Of a stretch of DNA of 31,056 nucleotides, positions 4,541 to 14,747 are shown piece after piece. Origin of the DNA: Promethearchaeota archaeon (GTDB taxonomy: Archaea > Asgardarchaeota > Lokiarchaeia > Sigyniarchaeales > SOKP01); NCBI GenBank assembly GCA_048938445.1, contig JBHLME010000048.1, positions 1 through 31,056 on the forward strand, written 5' to 3'. The notes below the pieces were generated by a model. It was not told the DNA's origin. It saw only the letters and a list, made by a program, of their open reading frames with translations, and did no database searches. Each line of letters starts with the position of its first letter. Position 1 is the stretch's first letter. Both the position numbers and the translations under genes were made by a program.

Positions 4541-5290
4541 ATGAGTCTGATTACAAAAGTTTCTGAACGCTTACAAATTGTATATAGACTTATATTGAAT
4601 CCAAAAGTAGTAAAATATACGATTTATAGTGCAATCCTCACGTTTATTCCCTGTATTATAATTGGATATATTGTTGCGAATCTTGATGCAACCCCTTTTA
4701 ATTTTTGGCAAAAAACTATTAGCTCTCTTGGATCAAGAAACGAGACTTTTATTCCAAAATTCTTAGATGATGGTGCAATGTTGACTTCAATTTTATTGAT
4801 TCCAATGGGTTTCTCATTACATAAACATTTAATCACAGTAAAAGACGTTAATAAATCAGAAGATAGGTCCAAATTACGTCTTTTATTAGCTCATTTAGGA
4901 TTAATGTTTTTTCTAATAGGTTTAGTAGGATTTTTTGGAATTGGATTTTACTCTGTAGATGTAGGGAATGCATTGGGAGATATTGCATATTTTGGAACTC
5001 GTGCGTTAAATATTCATGATATATTTTCAGCAGTAGTTTTTCTTGGTCTTGGAATTTCAGGTGTTTTTTTTGGATTATCAATATCGGTATATAAAACTTT
5101 TATTACCAACAGGAGATTTGCTTTAATTGTTGGAATTTACTTGATTTTTGTACCAATAACGATAGCCCTTTGTTATGTATTAATTACTCCAATTATATAT
5201 GTTCTCGAGTGGATATTGCTATTCTCTCTTTTTGGAGGGATGATTCCTTTAGCAATAACCCTTGTAAGGAAAATTAATAGAGAAGAATGA
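4541..5290 (+). CDS. Multi-pass membrane protein, DUF998/Frag1-DRAM-like
   Basis: About 6 hydrophobic segments; motifs 'TISSLGS', 'GFYSVD', 'IHDIFS', 'LEW'. Confidence 0.65.
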   Translation: MSLITKVSERLQIVYRLILNPKVVKYTIYSAILTFIPCIIIGYIVANLDATPFNFWQKTISSLGSRNETFIPKFLDDGAMLTSILLIPMGFSLHKHLITVKDVNKSEDRSKLRLLLAHLGLMFFLIGLVGFFGIGFYSVDVGNALGDIAYFGTRALNIHDIFSAVVFLGLGISGVFFGLSISVYKTFITNRRFALIVGIYLIFVPITIALCYVLITPIIYVLEWILLFSLFGGMIPLAITLVRKINREE

Positions 5291-8401: not shown

Positions 8402-9202
8402 TCATCTACTTTTTAAATCATTATTTATCATTTTTATAGCTACACAACCGACTGGATACAGCCACACCATTAAAGCAAACATCATGAACCACTCGTGAAA
8501 TTGCTCCTCAGTTAACAAAAAAAACATCATATGTAGTGTTGGCCAAATGACCATTTCTAATCCAAGAATCACTAGAACAATCCATGGAAGCTTCAAATCA
8601 ATGATTTTGCGTACAGTTTTTGGATACAGAATAAAGAATAATCCAATAAATATTCCTGCTATAACAAATCCTCCAAAAACGACCATTGAAAAGAAACGAT
8701 GATAGTTCATGCCAAACATTAAAATACCATATTGTGCTAATAAACGACCCTCATCTTCCGAGTAAAATCCTACCCAAAACCATCCTAATATACCTACCAC
8801 CATAAAGAAAAAGCCAATATTAATTAAAATCCACTTACCGACTCTTTTGATATCCCATTTCTCTTCTCCTTTATATGAAATATGAACTTTCTTATATAGA
8901 TAAAACACTAATGGTGTAAACAAGATTGCTAAAACCATCCATAAAATGTTCAATAATACTGGAATTGGGGTGTATCTCACTGAACCAAGGTCGCTAATAT
9001 AATGATTAAATATGTTATATCCATTCCACTCGTAAGTAGTGAATTGCGCAGGATCAAAAAAGTTTGCGTAATACACGGCAATTAACAAGAATACAATAAA
9101 ACTAAACAAACCTGCAATAGTGCACCACTTAACTCGTTTAGGTTCCGTCACATAGTCATAGAATTGATTTTTATATTTAACAATTTTTGCTTTTAATTCC
9201 AT
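8402..9202 (-). CDS. Multi-pass membrane protein, DUF998/Frag1-DRAM-like (tandem copy 1)
   Basis: About 6 TM segments; 'HYISDLGSVRY', 'VGFYSEDEGRLLA', 'YHRFFS', 'FHEWFM'. Confidence 0.7.
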   Translation of the reverse strand: MELKAKIVKYKNQFYDYVTEPKRVKWCTIAGLFSFIVFLLIAVYYANFFDPAQFTTYEWNGYNIFNHYISDLGSVRYTPIPVLLNILWMVLAILFTPLVFYLYKKVHISYKGEEKWDIKRVGKWILINIGFFFMVVGILGWFWVGFYSEDEGRLLAQYGILMFGMNYHRFFSMVVFGGFVIAGIFIGLFFILYPKTVRKIIDLKLPWIVLVILGLEMVIWPTLHMMFFLLTEEQFHEWFMMFALMVWLYPVGCVAIKMINNDLKSR

Positions 9203-9462: not shown

Positions 9463-10260
9463 TCATGCTCTTTCTGCTAAATCTTTCTTTAGCATTTGTA
9501 ATGTCCCGTAACCAATTGGATAAAGCCACGCTAATAAAGCGAAAAACATAAACCACTCATGAAATGGAAGTTGGCCATTAGAAATTATAAACAAGATTGC
9601 ATGAAGGGGTGGCCAAATAACCATTTCTAATCCAAGAATCACCAGTAAAATCCATGGAAGTTTCACATCAATGATTTTAAGGACTGTTTTTGGATAGAGA
9701 ATGAAGAATATTCCTATAAAAACTCCCGCCACAACCATTCCTCCAAAGACGACGATCGAGAAGATCATGTGTAAATCTTGGCCAAGAATTTGAAAACCAT
9801 ATGGTGCTAATAAACGACCCTCATCCTCCGAGAAAAATCCTACCCAAAACCAACCAATGATCCCTATTACCAAAAAAGTAAAACCACAATTAATCAAGAG
9901 CCACTTGAGGGTTTTACTCACTCGGCTATCCGCCTCATCTTTGTAACAGACATGTATCTTTTTATATAAATAGAACACTAAAGGTGTAAACAAGATTGCT
10001 TCGGACATCCATAATATATTGAGTAATACTGGAACAGAAGTATACCTTACTGAACCTAGGTCGCTAATATAATGAATGAATATATTATATCCATCCTTAA
10101 CCGTAGCAGGATCATAGAAGTGGGCTATGAGAACTGCAATTGCTACGAATAAAATCAAACTGATCAATCCAGCTATCATGGTTAGCTTGACACGTTTAGG
10201 TTCCGTAACATAGTCATAAAATTGATTTTTGCAGTTAATTATTTTTGTTTTTAATTCCAT
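9463..10260 (-). CDS. Multi-pass membrane protein, DUF998/Frag1-DRAM-like (tandem copy 2)
   Basis: Collinear paralogue of 8402..9202: 'HYISDLGSVRY', 'VGFFSEDEGRLLA', 'LHMIFS', 'FHEWFM'. Confidence 0.7.
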   Translation of the reverse strand: MELKTKIINCKNQFYDYVTEPKRVKLTMIAGLISLILFVAIAVLIAHFYDPATVKDGYNIFIHYISDLGSVRYTSVPVLLNILWMSEAILFTPLVFYLYKKIHVCYKDEADSRVSKTLKWLLINCGFTFLVIGIIGWFWVGFFSEDEGRLLAPYGFQILGQDLHMIFSIVVFGGMVVAGVFIGIFFILYPKTVLKIIDVKLPWILLVILGLEMVIWPPLHAILFIISNGQLPFHEWFMFFALLAWLYPIGYGTLQMLKKDLAERA

Positions 10261-10516: not shown

Positions 10517-11269
10517 ATGGAAGATACAATCACGGATTTTTTAATCTTAATAATGATGTTTGTTCAATTTTTCTTAGCACTTATATTAATATATAAAGCA
10601 GTAAAATCTAAAATCCAATCAATATGGTTATTAGTATTCCATTCATTTGTTCAAGCCATTATATTCCTCCAACTTTTACGAACACCATTTTTAGATTTGG
10701 GAATTTTGTTATCTTATACAGCAGGTATTTCTTATTTGCTTGCCGTGTTTTTTATTCATAATACTTTTTATAAAGGACAAAAACGAGTATATCCCCTCCA
10801 TGTACTAATTATCATACTAAGTACAATTAATACTATTGTCTCTATTTATGATCCATATCCCTTTTTTCAACATCCCGTCTCTCCGCATGTATTTGTATGG
10901 GCTAATTTTTCTTTAGCAGCAATTCCTAACTATTGGTGTGCTTATGTGATTTTAAAAAAATATTTTGCATTTAGAGATAAAACCATCCAACCGTGGATAA
11001 AGATGAGATATTTAATTGCTGGTATCTCTCATTTATCATGGGCACATCTAGGAATAGGAATTATGGTAGGTGTTTATGCAGATATTCTATTACTTTTCTC
11101 ACCGATCTGGACAGCAACAACCATAACGATTTTTACAATTGGATATTTTATAGCATGGGTAATGCCCGAACCTCTAAAGAAATTTTTCAATAGGAAATAT
11201 GAACATGGTGAAGAGAAAGAGATGTCTGAGGAAGAAATCATGCAATTAATAAAGGAGGAAAGTTCTTGA
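10517..11269 (+). CDS. Uncharacterised 7-TM membrane protein (module copy 1)
   Basis: Seven hydrophobic stretches by eye, basic loops after TM1/3/5, post-TM7 'MPEPLKKFFNRKY' and acidic tail 'SEEEIMQLIK'. Confidence 0.75.
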   Translation: MEDTITDFLILIMMFVQFFLALILIYKAVKSKIQSIWLLVFHSFVQAIIFLQLLRTPFLDLGILLSYTAGISYLLAVFFIHNTFYKGQKRVYPLHVLIIILSTINTIVSIYDPYPFFQHPVSPHVFVWANFSLAAIPNYWCAYVILKKYFAFRDKTIQPWIKMRYLIAGISHLSWAHLGIGIMVGVYADILLLFSPIWTATTITIFTIGYFIAWVMPEPLKKFFNRKYEHGEEKEMSEEEIMQLIKEESS

Positions 11270-11538
11270 GTGAAAGCATGATTACATTACTTGGAATTGA
11301 ATTATCGAAACTAATTAACATTGAACTTATTGCTTCAAAAGGAATAATTTTATTAGCAACTAAAGATGAATATGGTTCTATTAAGGATTTAACCATTGAT
11401 AAACTTCAACTTGTTTTATCCAATACTCTAAAAAATCGTTTGAATAAGCTTGGCATTCCAAATATTGATCAAATTATAGCACATTTAGATAATACAATAA
11501 TAAAAAATCAATCTATTCTCACAATGGCAAGCTTTTAA
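11266..11538 (+). CDS. 90-aa soluble helical protein coupled to the 7-TM gene (copy 1)
   Basis: TTG start overlaps the upstream TGA (TTGA), with GGAGG just upstream. 69/90 residues identical to 12567..12839 by manual count. Confidence 0.8.
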   Translation: MSESMITLLGIELSKLINIELIASKGIILLATKDEYGSIKDLTIDKLQLVLSNTLKNRLNKLGIPNIDQIIAHLDNTIIKNQSILTMASF

Positions 11539-11811
11539 TTTGCCAGGATTACATTTTCTCTATTGCATTAATGATTAAATCTCATTTTTAATTTTTGATT
11601 TATTAATTATCAAAGAATTCAAAAAAGAGCTTGATATATAAAAATAAACTCCATTGACAAATTTTAAAAATTTCTCAAGATATTTAACATTTAGGATTGC
11701 TATTTTTCTTTTATATAAATACTAATAATAATTAAGATATAATTTTAAATAGAGAATAATTCTTTATTTTATAAAATTAAAAAGTTATTATCTAAGAGGT
11801 TAAGATTTATA

Positions 11812-12570
11812 GTGGAGCAAGTAATAAATAATACAATAGTAATAATAGCATTTATTCAATTTATTTTAGCACTTATTTTGATTAATAAAGCAGTAAAAAC
11901 GAAGATTCAAGTAATATGGTTATTAGTTTTTGATTCATTTGCTCAAGCACTTATCTTCCTTTCTTTTGCAAAATTTATAGATCTTGGTTTTCTTTTTATT
12001 TCTATTGTTGGTATGTCTCATTTATTAATCGTGATATTTGTTCATGAGACTTTTTATAAAGGACAAAAACGAGTATATTTCATATACTTATTAATTATTA
12101 TACCGTGTGTTATTGGATATATCTTAAATCTTTTTGATGACTCAATGTCATATACAAATCCTATCTCAACATATATATTTGCATGGTATAATTTCATACT
12201 TACATCAAGTCCTCATTTTTGGTGTTCTTACGTCATCTTGAAGCAATATCTTGTATTTAGAAATAAAGACATCCAACCCTGGATAAAGATGAGATATTTA
12301 ATTGCGGGAAGTTCTCACATATCCTGGGGGATTCTTGGAATATATACATTATTTCATTGGTATTTTTTTTTGAATATAGGTTACATATCAATAACATATG
12401 CATCTATGGTGTTTTCTATTGCAATAACCATTTTTACCATAGGATATTTTATAGCGTGGGTGATGCCAGAACCTTTAAAAAAGTTTTTCAATAGAAACTA
12501 TGAAATTAGCGATGACAAAGAGCTGTCTGAAGAAGAGATCATGCAAATAATAAAGAAGGGTCGATCATGA
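11812..12570 (+). CDS. Uncharacterised 7-TM membrane protein (module copy 2)
   Basis: GTG start. Paralogue of 10517..11269 sharing 'TFYKGQKRVY', 'IQPWIKMRYLIAG', 'ITIFTIGYFIAWVMPEPLKKFFNR' and 'SEEEIMQ'. Confidence 0.75.
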   Translation: MEQVINNTIVIIAFIQFILALILINKAVKTKIQVIWLLVFDSFAQALIFLSFAKFIDLGFLFISIVGMSHLLIVIFVHETFYKGQKRVYFIYLLIIIPCVIGYILNLFDDSMSYTNPISTYIFAWYNFILTSSPHFWCSYVILKQYLVFRNKDIQPWIKMRYLIAGSSHISWGILGIYTLFHWYFFLNIGYISITYASMVFSIAITIFTIGYFIAWVMPEPLKKFFNRNYEISDDKELSEEEIMQIIKKGRS

Positions 12571-12839
12571 GTGAAAGCATGATTTCATTACTTGGAATAG
12601 AATTAGCGAAATATATTAACGTTAGCCCAATTGCTTCAAGAAGTATTATTTTATTAGCTATTAAAGATGAATATGGATCTATAGGTGATTTAAACATTGA
12701 TAAACTGCAACTTGTTTTGTCTAATGCTCTGAAAATTCGTTTAAATAAACTTGGTATTCCTGATATTGATACAATTATAGAAGATTTAGAAAAAGCTCTC
12801 ATAAAAAATCAATCTATTCTCACAATGGCAAGTTTTTAA
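12567..12839 (+). CDS. 90-aa soluble helical protein coupled to the 7-TM gene (copy 2)
   Basis: ATGA start/stop overlap with the upstream gene; C-terminus IKNQSILTMASF identical to copy 1. Confidence 0.8.
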   Translation: MSESMISLLGIELAKYINVSPIASRSIILLAIKDEYGSIGDLNIDKLQLVLSNALKIRLNKLGIPDIDTIIEDLEKALIKNQSILTMASF

Positions 12840-13005: not shown

Positions 13006-13962
13006 ATGATGATAAATAATGATCAATTACCCAAAGCTATAAAGGTAATTTTAACGGGATTAGATAATGCAGGTAAGACATCAATCATAAATATCTTATT
13101 AAGAAATAAAGAAGAATTAAGCAATCCCAAGCCTACGAGAGGCGCGAAAGTTAGGGATTATCCATTTTTAGGGATGAATATAGCAGAATGGGACCTTGGT
13201 GGACAAAAAGTATACCGTAAAGCCTATTTAAACAAACAACCTGAAATAATTTTTGGTAATGCTAAAGCTATAATACACGTAGTTGATATTCAAGATGAGA
13301 AGCGCATTGAAGATTCGATGGATTATTTAGTAGATATTTATGAAAAGTTGATTGAACTGAAGGTAAAGCCAACAATTTATATCTTTTTCCATAAGTATGA
13401 TCCCGTGTCAATGATTGGATCCCAATCAGATCTTAATAATCATTCCTTGCTAATAAGAAACGCAGTTAAAAAGCTACTGAATTATCCCAAAATAGAATTT
13501 TACAGGACATCTATTTATGACTTTCAAATGATAAATATGGCAATGTCGAAAATCTTGTTAAGTTATATTCCCAGGTCCGATTTAATTGAAAATACGATTA
13601 AGCAGTTTAGTACGGATTTAAATTTTGAAGGTTTAGAACTTATAGATGAAAATTCATTGATTTTAGGTTCTTTTTATCTTAATAAATTCAGTAAAGAACT
13701 AATGAATTCAGTCACCCCTTTTTTCTTAGAAGTAAATGAAATCTTAGAAAAAGTCCCTTTTTCTCAACCCAATCAAGATGAAATCGAAGATGAGATGTTA
13801 ATAAGGAAATTTGGAAGGTATTTTCTATTTAAAAAATTTGCTTTAAGAGAAGATGGTTCAAATTTTTACTTTTTAGGCTGCAAGCGTGATTCAGATTTTA
13901 AAAAAGAGGACTTTTTAGTATTTGTTAATTTAATAAGAGAAATGTTAGTACAAATTTTATAA
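13006..13962 (+). CDS. Ras-superfamily small GTPase (Arf/Rag-like) with a C-terminal roadblock/longin-like domain
   Basis: G1 GLDNAGKT, G2 PTRG, G3 WDLGGQ, G4 HKYD, G5 TSIY, then a ~130-aa C-terminal alpha/beta extension ('LELIDENSLILG'). Confidence 0.88.
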   Translation: MMINNDQLPKAIKVILTGLDNAGKTSIINILLRNKEELSNPKPTRGAKVRDYPFLGMNIAEWDLGGQKVYRKAYLNKQPEIIFGNAKAIIHVVDIQDEKRIEDSMDYLVDIYEKLIELKVKPTIYIFFHKYDPVSMIGSQSDLNNHSLLIRNAVKKLLNYPKIEFYRTSIYDFQMINMAMSKILLSYIPRSDLIENTIKQFSTDLNFEGLELIDENSLILGSFYLNKFSKELMNSVTPFFLEVNEILEKVPFSQPNQDEIEDEMLIRKFGRYFLFKKFALREDGSNFYFLGCKRDSDFKKEDFLVFVNLIREMLVQIL

Positions 13963-13967
13963 CTTCA

Positions 13968-14747
13968 TTATTGATTCTTCTCTTGAAGATATCGGGCAAA
14001 AATATTCATGTACAGACATTCTTCAGGGGCCATTTCGGTTTTAGTTTGAGGATTACTCGTGAATTCAACATTAACATCCCTAATTATTACAACAGGCGTC
14101 TGTTGGTTTCCTTCACCAAGGAGAAATTGTGCAGCACTTGCTAAATCATCTGCTACGGCTCGTTTCGTTATTTCTAAATGTCTATTATATAGATCTGGTT
14201 GACCAATACAATCTTCAATTGGTTCGAATCCCGCTGTTGCGATTGCAATTCCGATGGTTCCAACTCTAAGAGGTTGAACTCGAGAATCTGCTATTAAAAT
14301 ACCTAAATCCTTAACGCTAAATTCATTTTTCAAAATTTTCCAATAATCCCAAACAACAGTTTTGAGATCCGATGGTAATAAAACTACATTATTTAGACCT
14401 GCATTTGATTGATCAATACCAGCATTCGCAATGAGGAAATCATGTGTTTTAGCAAGAATCACGTGTTGCATCCCTCCCAATATCATGGAAGATTCCTGTA
14501 GGATCAATTCTACAAATCGTTCATCCATGTCATATTCTTTGGCTAAGTCTTTAGCTTTATTTGAAATCTGTTTAACGTCTTTTAGATTTATTACTCTTCC
14601 TTGGGATGTAGCAATCACTTTTTCTGAGAATACAACAATATCTTTTTCCTTTAGCTCTATATCTAACTCATTTAACTTTTTAATTAGAATTTCTAATAGT
14701 GGATCATTTTTTTTTATCAATGGTAGCTTGAGTGAAAATAATTGCAT
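13968..14747 (-). CDS. cofE: Coenzyme F420:L-glutamate ligase (CofE) family protein
   Basis: 'DIVVFSEKVIATSQGR', 'ANAGIDQSN', 'LIADS', 'GIAIA.AGF', 'DLYNRHLEIT..AVADDLASAA', 'GEGNQQTPVVIIR'. Confidence 0.9.
   Translation of the reverse strand: MQLFSLKLPLIKKNDPLLEILIKKLNELDIELKEKDIVVFSEKVIATSQGRVINLKDVKQISNKAKDLAKEYDMDERFVELILQESSMILGGMQHVILAKTHDFLIANAGIDQSNAGLNNVVLLPSDLKTVVWDYWKILKNEFSVKDLGILIADSRVQPLRVGTIGIAIATAGFEPIEDCIGQPDLYNRHLEITKRAVADDLASAAQFLLGEGNQQTPVVIIRDVNVEFTSNPQTKTEMAPEECLYMNIFARYLQEKNQ

What the first reader, a model, noticed from the sequence alone, without database searches (positions are those of the whole stretch)
10517..12839. Duplicated 7-TM protein plus translationally coupled 90-aa partner: candidate undescribed receptor-transducer system
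Seen: two tandem copies of a two-gene unit, each with a 4-nt start/stop overlap (TTGA, ATGA). The first gene encodes about seven hydrophobic helices, a post-TM7 amphipathic stretch (PEPLKKFFNRxY) and an acidic tail (SEEEIMQ). Between copies, the basic loops after TM1, TM3, TM5 and the tail are nearly invariant (KAVKxKIQ, TFYKGQKRVY, IQPWIKMRY, AWVMPEPLKKFFNR), while the alternate loops and outer helix halves diverge. Established: the positive-inside rule places the basic loops in the cytoplasm, giving an N-out/C-in topology like GPCRs and HisKA-7TM sensors. No kinase, cyclase or MCP output domain is fused. Inference: paralogous receptors with different ligand faces and a conserved cytoplasmic docking face for the co-translated small protein.
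Basis: partly seen in the sequence, partly recalled or inferred. Interest (0 to 1): 0.85.

Follow-up and report, generated by a model that had tools for sequence, protein, structure and literature searches.

The report
Asgard 7-helix membrane protein with partner
Two tandem copies of an unnamed gene pair from an Asgard archaeon encode a seven-helix membrane protein and a small cytoplasmic partner that are almost always found together, look like a receptor with a detachable inner domain, and often sit beside signalling genes.

Summary
Window 10517-12839 holds two tandem units, each a ~250-aa seven-helix membrane protein (TM) followed, with a 4-nt overlap, by a 90-aa protein (P). The copies are 56% (TM) and 77% (P) identical.

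Positive-inside charge and hydropathy give N-out/C-in topology.

No Pfam, NCBIfam, PADLOC or PDB family matches either protein.

The family was found in only one family of Promethearchaeota: 38 of 121 genomes there, and 0 of 125 genomes from other families of the phylum. It has 13 paralogs in this genome.

Pairing is near-obligate. Of 96 TM genes, 89 have P beside them on the same strand: 45 downstream, 36 upstream, 4 both, 4 fused. P is therefore best read as a detachable C-terminal cytoplasmic domain or subunit.

Soluble PAS histidine kinases are the immediate neighbour far more often than farther out (23 of 152 against 10 of 372). Small GTPases are modestly enriched, and the window has a Rag-like one.

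Best reading (about 0.5): a new 7TM sensor module with a dedicated cytoplasmic adaptor feeding cytosolic signalling proteins.

The parts
10517..11269 (+). TM1: 250-aa seven-helix membrane protein, N-out/C-in. Conserved inner motifs are TFYKGQKR (after TM3), IQPWIKMRY (before TM6), AWVMPEPLKKFFNR (after TM7) and the acidic tail MSEEEIM.
   Evidence: ESM Atlas model pTM 0.74, with 7TM-receptor structural neighbours.
11266..11538 (+). P1: 90-aa soluble partner. Its TTG start overlaps the TM1 stop by 4 nt; an alternative ATG lies 12 nt downstream.
11812..12570 (+). TM2: 252-aa paralog of TM1 (56% identity), GTG start.
12567..12839 (+). P2: 90-aa paralog of P1 (77% identity). Its ATG overlaps the TM2 stop by 4 nt.
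   Evidence: ESM Atlas model pTM 0.69.
13006..13962 (+). Rag/Gtr1-like GTPase (318 aa), 166 nt downstream on the same strand. It is a possible but unproven output or associate of the module.
   Evidence: Pfam PF04670 E 2.1e-31. PDB 8yl2_A E 3e-52. The same TM-P-GTPase order occurs in the closest relative.

Best explanation
The window carries two tandem copies of a two-part membrane module. The module is specific to one family of Promethearchaeota (Asgard archaea).

Part one is a ~250-aa seven-helix protein. Its short N-terminus and tiny loops face outside. It has a strongly conserved basic cytoplasmic face and a conserved acidic C-terminal tail.

Part two is a ~90-aa soluble cytoplasmic protein. 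It is the detachable C-terminal domain of part one: usually a separate, tightly coupled gene on either side, sometimes fused.

Proposed mechanism: the variable outer halves of the helix bundle sense a small, probably membrane-soluble or membrane-borne cue. The resulting change is read at the conserved inner face and tail by the small subunit. The small subunit passes it to cytosolic signalling proteins that lack membrane anchors of their own. These are soluble PAS histidine kinases in about a quarter of loci and small GTPases in about a tenth (a Rag-like GTPase in this window).

Shown: gene structure, topology signal, conservation pattern, pairing, fusion, co-divergence and neighbour enrichment.

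Inferred: physical binding of the two parts, the sensing role, and the relay to kinases or GTPases.
For: Pairing:
- 89 of 96 TM genes in 38 genomes have P within 400 nt on the same strand: 45 downstream, 36 upstream, 4 both, 4 fused.
- All 38 of 121 genomes with TM also have P.
- TM-to-P gaps lie between -26 and +21 nt in 40 of 41 pairs. P-to-TM gaps are at most 62 nt in 31 of 34 pairs.

Fusion:
- Two of 13 paralogs in this genome are single ORFs of 345 and 351 aa.
- Of 13 representatives of 340 aa or more, 10 carry the P domain at the C-terminus with E <= 6e-17 and one weakly.

Co-divergence:
- Mantel r is 0.71 over 10 paralogous pairs within this genome and 0.61 over 68 pairs. 0 of 2000 permutations reached either value.
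- Both genes are under purifying selection (dN/dS 0.33 and 0.35).

Receptor-like features:
- Seven helices, N-out/C-in.
- All columns conserved at 60% or more lie in the inner loops, the inner helix halves or ends, or the tail (only the start Met is outside).
- Expansion to 13 paralogs.
- Structural neighbours of the ESM Atlas model are 7TMR-DISM sensor kinases and cyclases, a His_kinase 7TM cluster, and class A and B GPCRs (TM-score 0.55-0.66).

Context, over 83 loci:
- Histidine kinases are 23 of 152 immediate neighbours (20 on the same strand) against 10 of 372 farther genes.
- GTPases are 8 of 152 (all same strand) against 7 of 372.
- Other neighbours are 60 same strand and 60 opposite.
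- On a tree of 92 TM proteins, kinase adjacency needs at least 8 changes (5 forced by supported branches) and GTPase adjacency needs 6 (5 forced).
- The adjacent kinases are PAS-PAS-HisKA-HATPase. None has a clear hydrophobic segment: maximum 19-residue hydropathy is at most 1.68 in all 23.

Passages of PMC10343646 say that Asgard sensor kinases are mostly cytoplasmic with few transmembrane domains. That leaves room for separate membrane sensors.
Against: - No interface, ligand or signalling activity was tested.
- TM-scores of about 0.6 between seven-helix bundles are weak evidence of shared function.
- No receptor family matches by sequence: Pfam on 75 members, and PF07695 and PF16927 with no match at E <= 1 in the whole genome.
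- 55 of 83 loci have neither a kinase nor a GTPase as an immediate neighbour.
- Kinase gaps (median 99 nt) and GTPase gaps (median 164 nt) are much looser than the TM-P junction.
- Many kinase-adjacent loci are orthologous, so the raw counts overstate independence.
- This genome has 96 GTPase-like ORFs, so some GTPase adjacency is expected by chance. The adjacent GTPases belong to three different subfamilies.
- External loops are almost absent, so there is no obvious ligand-binding domain.
- The neighbour families were chosen after looking at the data.
Confidence: 0.5

Rival explanations
1. A two-part membrane protein with a non-signalling role. It could be a small-molecule transporter or channel, or a membrane scaffold, whose cytoplasmic domain (P) is regulatory or structural. 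The neighbouring kinases and GTPases would be incidental.
For: - Pairing and fusion show only that P is a subunit, not what the complex does.
- 55 of 83 loci have no signalling neighbour.
- One conserved locus type places the module between an ECF-type S component and a GH20-like hydrolase.
Against: - Only one in-membrane column is at least 50% polar away from the helix ends (Q/R at position 17, 55%).
- There is no internal repeat of TM1-3 against TM5-7 (hhalign probability 0.6%).
- All strong conservation is cytoplasmic.
- There is no match to any transporter or enzyme model.
- Kinases are enriched specifically at distance 1 and on the same strand.
Confidence: 0.25
2. A membrane platform that recruits small GTPases, with the TM protein as anchor and P as adaptor. 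This would be functionally analogous to the SLC38A9-Ragulator-Rag arrangement of eukaryotes. The Rag-like GTPase downstream in the window would be its client.
For: - The TM-P-Rag-like GTPase order is kept in the closest relative. There the GTPase is 84% identical and the TM protein 59-70% identical.
- GTPases are 8 of 152 immediate neighbours, all on the same strand, against 7 of 372 farther out. They occur at five or more separate places on the TM tree.
Against: - The genome has 96 GTPase-like ORFs, so adjacency is partly expected.
- The orthologue of TM2 in G152 has no GTPase beside it (L066).
- The two Rag-like paralogs of this genome (C242, C176) are not beside TM-P units.
- P matches no Roadblock or longin model.
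- Passages of PMC10933270 say that MK-D1 GTPases are generally not in operons with their regulators.
Confidence: 0.12
3. P is a small DNA-binding (helix-turn-helix-like) regulator that the TM protein holds at the membrane and releases on a signal.
For: - By eye, the P segment L-A-x-x-I-x-I-S-x-x-A-x-R-G-L resembles helices 2-3 of XRE-type HTH domains.
- hhalign aligns exactly that stretch to this genome's own HTH_3 domains.
Against: - hhalign probability is only 4% over 17 columns.
- Pfam HTH_3 finds 5 domains in the genome and none in any P.
- No HTH family appears among 10 P proteins scanned at E <= 10, or in the PDB profile search.
Confidence: 0.05

Closest known systems
7TMR-DISM receptors (Pfam PF07695 7TM region; bacterial 7TM receptors with diverse intracellular signalling modules)
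   Same: Seven-helix bundle with a cytoplasmic signalling output that includes histidine kinases. They are among the nearest structural neighbours of the Atlas model (TM-score 0.61-0.65 over about 200 residues).
   Different: - No sequence match.
- No large extracellular N-terminal domain; here the N-terminus is about 5 residues.
- The output is not fused. Instead there is a dedicated 90-aa subunit and, at some loci, a separate soluble kinase.
HisKA_7TM (PF16927) sensor kinases
   Same: A seven-helix membrane region linked to a histidine kinase. An Atlas feature neighbour has HisKA_7TM on 10% of its members (score 0.88, a lead only).
   Different: - No match in this genome at E <= 1.
- The kinase is a separate soluble PAS protein, and only 22 of 83 loci have one adjacent.
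Anabaena sensory rhodopsin with its soluble transducer ASRT; haloarchaeal sensory rhodopsin-Htr pairs (recalled; the Htr pair is also described in passages of PMC13466386)
   Same: A seven-helix sensor and a small dedicated partner encoded side by side.
   Different: - No rhodopsin model match and no conserved Lys in TM7.
- ASRT is, from memory, an all-beta protein, and Htr is membrane-embedded. P is soluble and matches neither by sequence.
Eukaryotic GPCRs
   Same: - N-out/C-in seven helices, with variable outer and conserved inner halves.
- Paralog expansion.
- A post-TM7 amphipathic stretch.
- An adhesion GPCR and the relaxin receptor among structural neighbours (TM-score 0.63-0.66 by query).
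- GTPase genes nearby at some loci.
   Different: - No sequence homology. One of 75 members hits a nematode serpentine model at E 0.0015, below its cut-off.
- The neighbouring GTPases are small Rag-, Arf- and Ras-like types, not heterotrimeric G proteins.
- Coupling is untested.
SLC38A9-Ragulator-Rag GTPase (eukaryotic lysosomal nutrient sensing; the Ragulator-Rag scaffold is described in passages of PMC10933270; SLC38A9 is recalled)
   Same: A membrane protein, a small adaptor and a Rag-type GTPase, as in the window's gene order.
   Different: - The TM protein is not an SLC38 transporter.
- P is not a Roadblock protein by any test.
- The link rests on gene order in two genomes only.

Membership tests
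7TMR-DISM_7TM (PF07695) | Match to the family's sequence model | tested here: not met
   No hit for the window proteins, for 75 family members at E <= 1, or anywhere in the genome at E <= 1.
7TMR-DISM_7TM (PF07695) | Extracellular N-terminal sensor domain and a fused intracellular output module | tested here: not met
   The N-terminus before TM1 is about 5 residues. The protein ends about 35 residues after TM7.
7TMR-DISM_7TM (PF07695) | Seven-helix fold similar to family members | tested here: inconclusive
HisKA_7TM (PF16927) | Match to the sequence model and a fused HisKA/HATPase kinase | tested here: not met
   No match in the genome at E <= 1. No kinase domain is present in the ORFs. A separate kinase is adjacent in 22 of 83 loci.
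Microbial rhodopsins | Bac_rhodopsin model match and a retinal-binding Lys in helix 7 | tested here: not met
   No Pfam hit. The conserved TM7 columns are F206, A213, W214 and M216, with no conserved Lys.
Eukaryotic GPCR families (7tm_1, 7tm_2, 7tm_3 and relatives) | Match to a family model | tested here: not met
   No family reaches its cut-off among 75 members. The structural likeness is TM-score 0.63-0.66 only.
SWEET / PQ-loop type 7TM transporters | Internal repeat of TM1-3 and TM5-7 | tested here: not met
   hhalign of the N-terminal against the C-terminal half of the family alignment gives probability 0.6%.
Roadblock/LC7 (Ragulator- or MglB-like) for the 90-aa partner | Match to Roadblock/LC7 or longin models | tested here: not met
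   No such hit for the window partners or for 10 partner proteins at E <= 10. The PDB profile search found none.
XRE-type HTH (PF01381) for the 90-aa partner | Match to the HTH_3 model or profile | tested here: not met
   The Pfam model finds 5 domains in the genome and none in a partner. hhalign probability is 4%.
Two-gene unit as a protein complex (TM with P) | Physical interface between the two proteins | not testable with these tools
   Complex prediction was busy and then unavailable. The indirect evidence is fusion, adjacency and co-divergence.

The most novel reading that the evidence does not exclude
This is a prokaryotic seven-helix receptor family with a dedicated cytoplasmic adaptor. 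It couples membrane sensing to small Ras-superfamily GTPases (Rag-, Arf- and Rab-like) as well as to soluble histidine kinases.

If so, it would be an Asgard-lineage receptor-to-GTPase pathway, functionally parallel to GPCR or Ragulator-Rag signalling. It would have arisen in the closest archaeal relatives of eukaryotes. It would also explain how the mostly cytoplasmic Asgard kinases and GTPases receive membrane input.
Probability: 0.12. Interest if true: 0.9.

Novelty: new variant of a known kind. Interest (0 to 1): 0.62.

Why it matters
Asgard archaea carry very many small GTPases (96 GTPase-like ORFs here). Their histidine kinases are reported to be mostly cytoplasmic (passages of PMC10343646). 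How these receive signals from the membrane is not known.

This family is a concrete, testable candidate for the missing membrane input:
- It is a seven-helix protein with a conserved inner docking face.
- It has an obligate small cytoplasmic subunit.
- It is expanded to 13 paralogs in this genome.
- It lies repeatedly beside soluble PAS kinases and, less often, GTPases.

Neither protein is in any family database that I searched, so both are new families either way. The natural split, fused and reordered forms give a ready-made design for binding experiments.

Tried and rejected
Family and structure searches that found nothing:
- Pfam on the window proteins, on 10 partners, on 75 TM members and on 7 distant look-alikes.
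- NCBIfam and PADLOC.
- PDB profile searches for TM (0 hits at E <= 10) and P (best E 0.21).

Weak Tetraspanin hits (8 of 75 members, best E 0.0043, below the cut-off) were set aside as compositional.

The single-sequence search for P found only the window's two copies. A profile search among longer proteins found one fused 341-aa protein and no other architecture. This is weak evidence, because only 8000 candidates were scored.

Readings rejected:
- The HTH reading of P.
- An internal repeat in the TM protein.
- A rhodopsin reading.

The DUF998 association (4 of the genome's 6 DUF998-like ORFs lie near TM-P units) did not recur in other genomes. I treat it as local.

The bacterial promoter and terminator scan is uninformative for an archaeon: 21 sites found against 28.6 expected, and 0 terminators.

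No support or no verdict from tools:
- Complex prediction did not complete.
- The search of earlier findings and the look-up of sequencing runs were closed, so there is no expression evidence and no earlier notes.
- Supplements of the papers were not opened. The lists of Asgard '7TM proteins' and GPCR-like structural clusters mentioned in passages of bioRxiv 10.64898/2026.10.28.762692 may or may not include this family.

Literature searches that turned up no description of this pair. I read listings and abstracts, and I read passages of PMC13466386, PMC10933270, PMC10343646, 10.64898/2026.10.28.762692 and 10.1101/2020.10.19.343400.

Rows dropped or left out:
- One search used 96 of the 105 TM rows (the 9 weakest, E >= 7.2e-17, were left out) and all 105 partner rows.
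- fetched 60 of 62 planned regions. G240:C34 and G159:C161 were not fetched.
- The 83-locus context set is the window, plus 11 own-genome loci (L017-L027), plus L050-L060, plus L065-L124. The partner-only loci L028-L030 were not included.
- Alignment A6 holds 75 sequences: 14 from the window, its genome, and 61 of the 150 listed representatives (of 359 hits), chosen by rank and a length of about 235-280 aa.
- The tree is FastTree only.
Full report
**What is there.** Window 10517-12839 (+ strand) holds four ORFs in two tandem units.
- TM1 is 10517-11269 (250 aa).
- P1 is 11266-11538 (90 aa). Its TTG start sits inside TTGA.
- TM2 is 11812-12570 (252 aa, GTG start).
- P2 is 12567-12839 (90 aa). 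Its ATG sits inside ATGA.

TM1 and TM2 are 56% identical (E 1e-95). P1 and P2 are 77% identical (E 3e-46). Both pairs are under purifying selection. dN/dS is 0.33 (dS 0.95) for TM and 0.35 (dS 0.43) for P. The regions upstream of the two units share no significant similarity. The window is AT-rich (GC 0.25-0.38).

**Topology and conservation.** The averaged hydropathy of 75 homologues shows exactly seven hydrophobic segments.

Mean K+R is 3.2, 2.9, 4.7 and 3.4 in the loops after TM1, TM3 and TM5 and in the proximal tail. It is 0.1, 0.1, 0.5 and 0.1 in the N-terminus and the other loops. The positive-inside rule (established knowledge) therefore gives N-out/C-in.

The external parts are tiny, at about 5, 6, 12 and 2 residues.

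Between the two copies the inner loops and tail are 7/8, 10/11, 13/18 and 11/12 identical. The outer loops are 2/4, 3/12 and 0/2. Inner helix halves are 72% identical and outer halves 32%.

Across the family, every column conserved at 60% or more lies in an inner loop, an inner helix half or end, or the tail (only the start Met is outside). These are the TFYK..K motif, I.PWIK.RY, AW.MP..LK...NR.Y and the acidic S-E-E-E tail.

There is no well-conserved polar residue deep in the membrane and no Lys in TM7. TM1-3 and TM5-7 are not an internal repeat (hhalign probability 0.6%).

**No known family.** None of these searches gives a significant match to either protein:
- Pfam.
- NCBIfam.
- PADLOC.
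- PDB profile searches.

The Pfam models HisKA_7TM and 7TMR-DISM_7TM match nothing in the whole genome at E <= 1.

The ESM Atlas holds both proteins. The TM model has pTM 0.74. Its structural neighbours are 7TMR-DISM kinases and cyclases, a His_kinase-linked 7TM cluster, an adhesion GPCR and the relaxin receptor (TM-score 0.55-0.66). Its feature neighbours are unnamed Promethearchaeota clusters (0.95).

The P model has pTM 0.69. Its nearest structures are unnamed ~100-aa Myxococcota proteins (TM-score 0.81 and 0.74). These are leads only.

**Size and range of the family.**
- A word-indexed search found only 4 outside relatives of TM and none of P.
- An exhaustive profile search found 359 clusters at E <= 0.001, of which 292 were at E <= 1e-10.
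- In 151 genomes sampled across the phylum, TM occurs in 7, all in the window's own family: 6 of 25 other genomes there, and 0 of 125 in the 26 other families.
- In 121 genomes of that family, TM occurs in 38 and P in 42. All 38 with TM also have P.
- The window's genome has 13 TM and 13-14 P copies. Its genus has 4-7 copies per (incomplete) genome. Other genera have 1-4.
- Record titles of related loci and the Atlas place the family in Promethearchaeota.

**P is a subunit or detachable domain of TM.** Of 96 TM genes, 89 have P within 400 nt on the same strand. P lies downstream in 45, upstream in 36 and on both sides in 4. It is fused in 4, and 7 have none.

The junctions are tight. TM-to-P gaps are -26 to +21 nt in 40 of 41 pairs. 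P-to-TM gaps are at most 62 nt in 31 of 34.

In this genome two paralogs are single ORFs of 345 and 351 aa. In them the tail runs straight into the first helix of P. Among the 13 representatives of 340 aa or more, 10 carry P at the C-terminus (E <= 6e-17), one does so weakly and two do not.

TM and P distances co-vary (Mantel r 0.71 for 10 within-genome pairs and 0.61 for 68 pairs, 0 of 2000 permutations). So they duplicate and diverge as units. No other architecture with P was found.

**Context.** In the window the units are followed, after 166 nt, by a Rag/Gtr1-like GTPase (PF04670 E 2e-31; PDB 8yl2_A E 3e-52). They are preceded by two DUF998-like genes on the other strand. The closest relative keeps the order TM-P-Rag-like GTPase-CofE.

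Over 83 loci:
- Histidine kinases are 23 of 152 immediate neighbours, 20 of them on the same strand. They are 10 of 372 genes farther out.
- GTPases are 8 of 152 immediate neighbours, all on the same strand. They are 7 of 372 farther out.
- Other neighbours split 60 same strand and 60 opposite.
- 22 of 83 loci have an adjacent kinase, 8 have an adjacent GTPase, and 28 have either.

On a FastTree of 92 TM proteins, kinase adjacency needs at least 8 changes and GTPase adjacency needs 6. Five of each are forced by well-supported branches. So the association is not a single inherited arrangement, although many rows are orthologous.

The adjacent kinases are PAS-PAS-HisKA-HATPase proteins without a clear hydrophobic segment. 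Sixteen of the 20 same-strand kinases lie downstream of a TM gene, and the median gap over the 20 is 99 nt.

The adjacent GTPases are Rag-like, Arf-like or Ras/Rab-like. The genome has 45 kinase-like and 96 GTPase-like ORFs. The kinase enrichment is therefore clear. The GTPase enrichment is modest.

**Interpretation.** The data fit a membrane sensor. It has a variable outer half, a conserved inner docking face and an obligate small cytoplasmic subunit. It is linked at many loci to soluble signalling proteins.

Passages of PMC10343646 report that Asgard sensor kinases are mostly cytoplasmic. Passages of PMC10933270 report that MK-D1 GTPases are generally not in operons with their regulators. 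Passages of bioRxiv 10.64898/2026.10.28.762692 mention Asgard 7TM and GPCR-like structural clusters. I could not check whether this family is among them.

Binding, ligand and output remain untested. The main rival is a non-signalling two-part membrane protein.

**Verdict.** Both proteins are new sequence families. Together they form a new variant of the 7TM-sensor-plus-partner theme.

Noticed in passing
window 13006-13962 (+): Rag/Gtr1-like GTPase of 318 aa. Its GTPase domain spans residues 13-223, followed by a C-terminal extension of about 95 aa. The best solved relative is 8yl2_A (E 3e-52). An 84%-identical orthologue in G167:C40 sits in the same TM-P-GTPase-CofE order. Two 40-42% paralogs elsewhere in the genome are not beside TM-P units.
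   Followed up: partly
window 4541-5290 (+), 8402-9202 (-), 9463-10260 (-); G000:C24:2663-3313 (-): DUF998-like membrane proteins, including a tandem pair just upstream of the units. Four of the six DUF998-like ORFs of the genome lie near TM-P units. The pattern did not recur in other genomes.
   Followed up: partly
window 13968-14747 (-): F420-0:gamma-glutamyl ligase (CofE, PF01996 E 1e-61), convergent with the GTPase gene. It is also present in the syntenic relative L061.
   Followed up: no
L050, L051, L075, L077, L088, L104, L122 and similar loci: A recurrent locus in other genera has this order: ECF riboflavin-type S component (opposite strand), TM-P-TM sharing one P, a soluble PAS-PAS histidine kinase, then a GH20 hexosaminidase-like protein of about 864 aa. 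The two TM genes belong to different deep clades of the family.
   Followed up: partly
L034:2308-2595 (-), L036:2250-2549 (+), L045:2308-2595 (-): These partner reading frames have no ATG, GTG or TTG near the aligned start. A non-canonical start codon or another way of expression is possible.
   Followed up: no
window 11266-11538 vs 12567-12839: Synonymous divergence between the two partner genes (dS 0.43) is about half that between the two TM genes (dS 0.95). Gene conversion or codon constraint could explain it.
   Followed up: no
G000: C40:11087-11833, C137:25502-26338, C8:3966-4805, C81:10195-10971, C209:36696-37463, C176:31546-32289; C68:14239-14973: Six ~250-aa proteins align weakly over all seven helices (E 1e-4 to 0.9) but lack the conserved tail and a partner. 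The seventh, the 244-aa membrane protein on C68 just downstream of a TM-P unit, was not among these matches. None of the seven has a Pfam match. They may belong to a wider superfamily.
   Followed up: partly
G000:C25:199-975 (-): The TM paralog on C25 is homologous over about 26 residues upstream of its first ATG/GTG/TTG. The start codon is unclear or the gene is damaged.
   Followed up: no
G000:C109:10469-10744 (-): This is the one partner gene in this genome with no TM gene nearby and no contig end to explain it.
   Followed up: no
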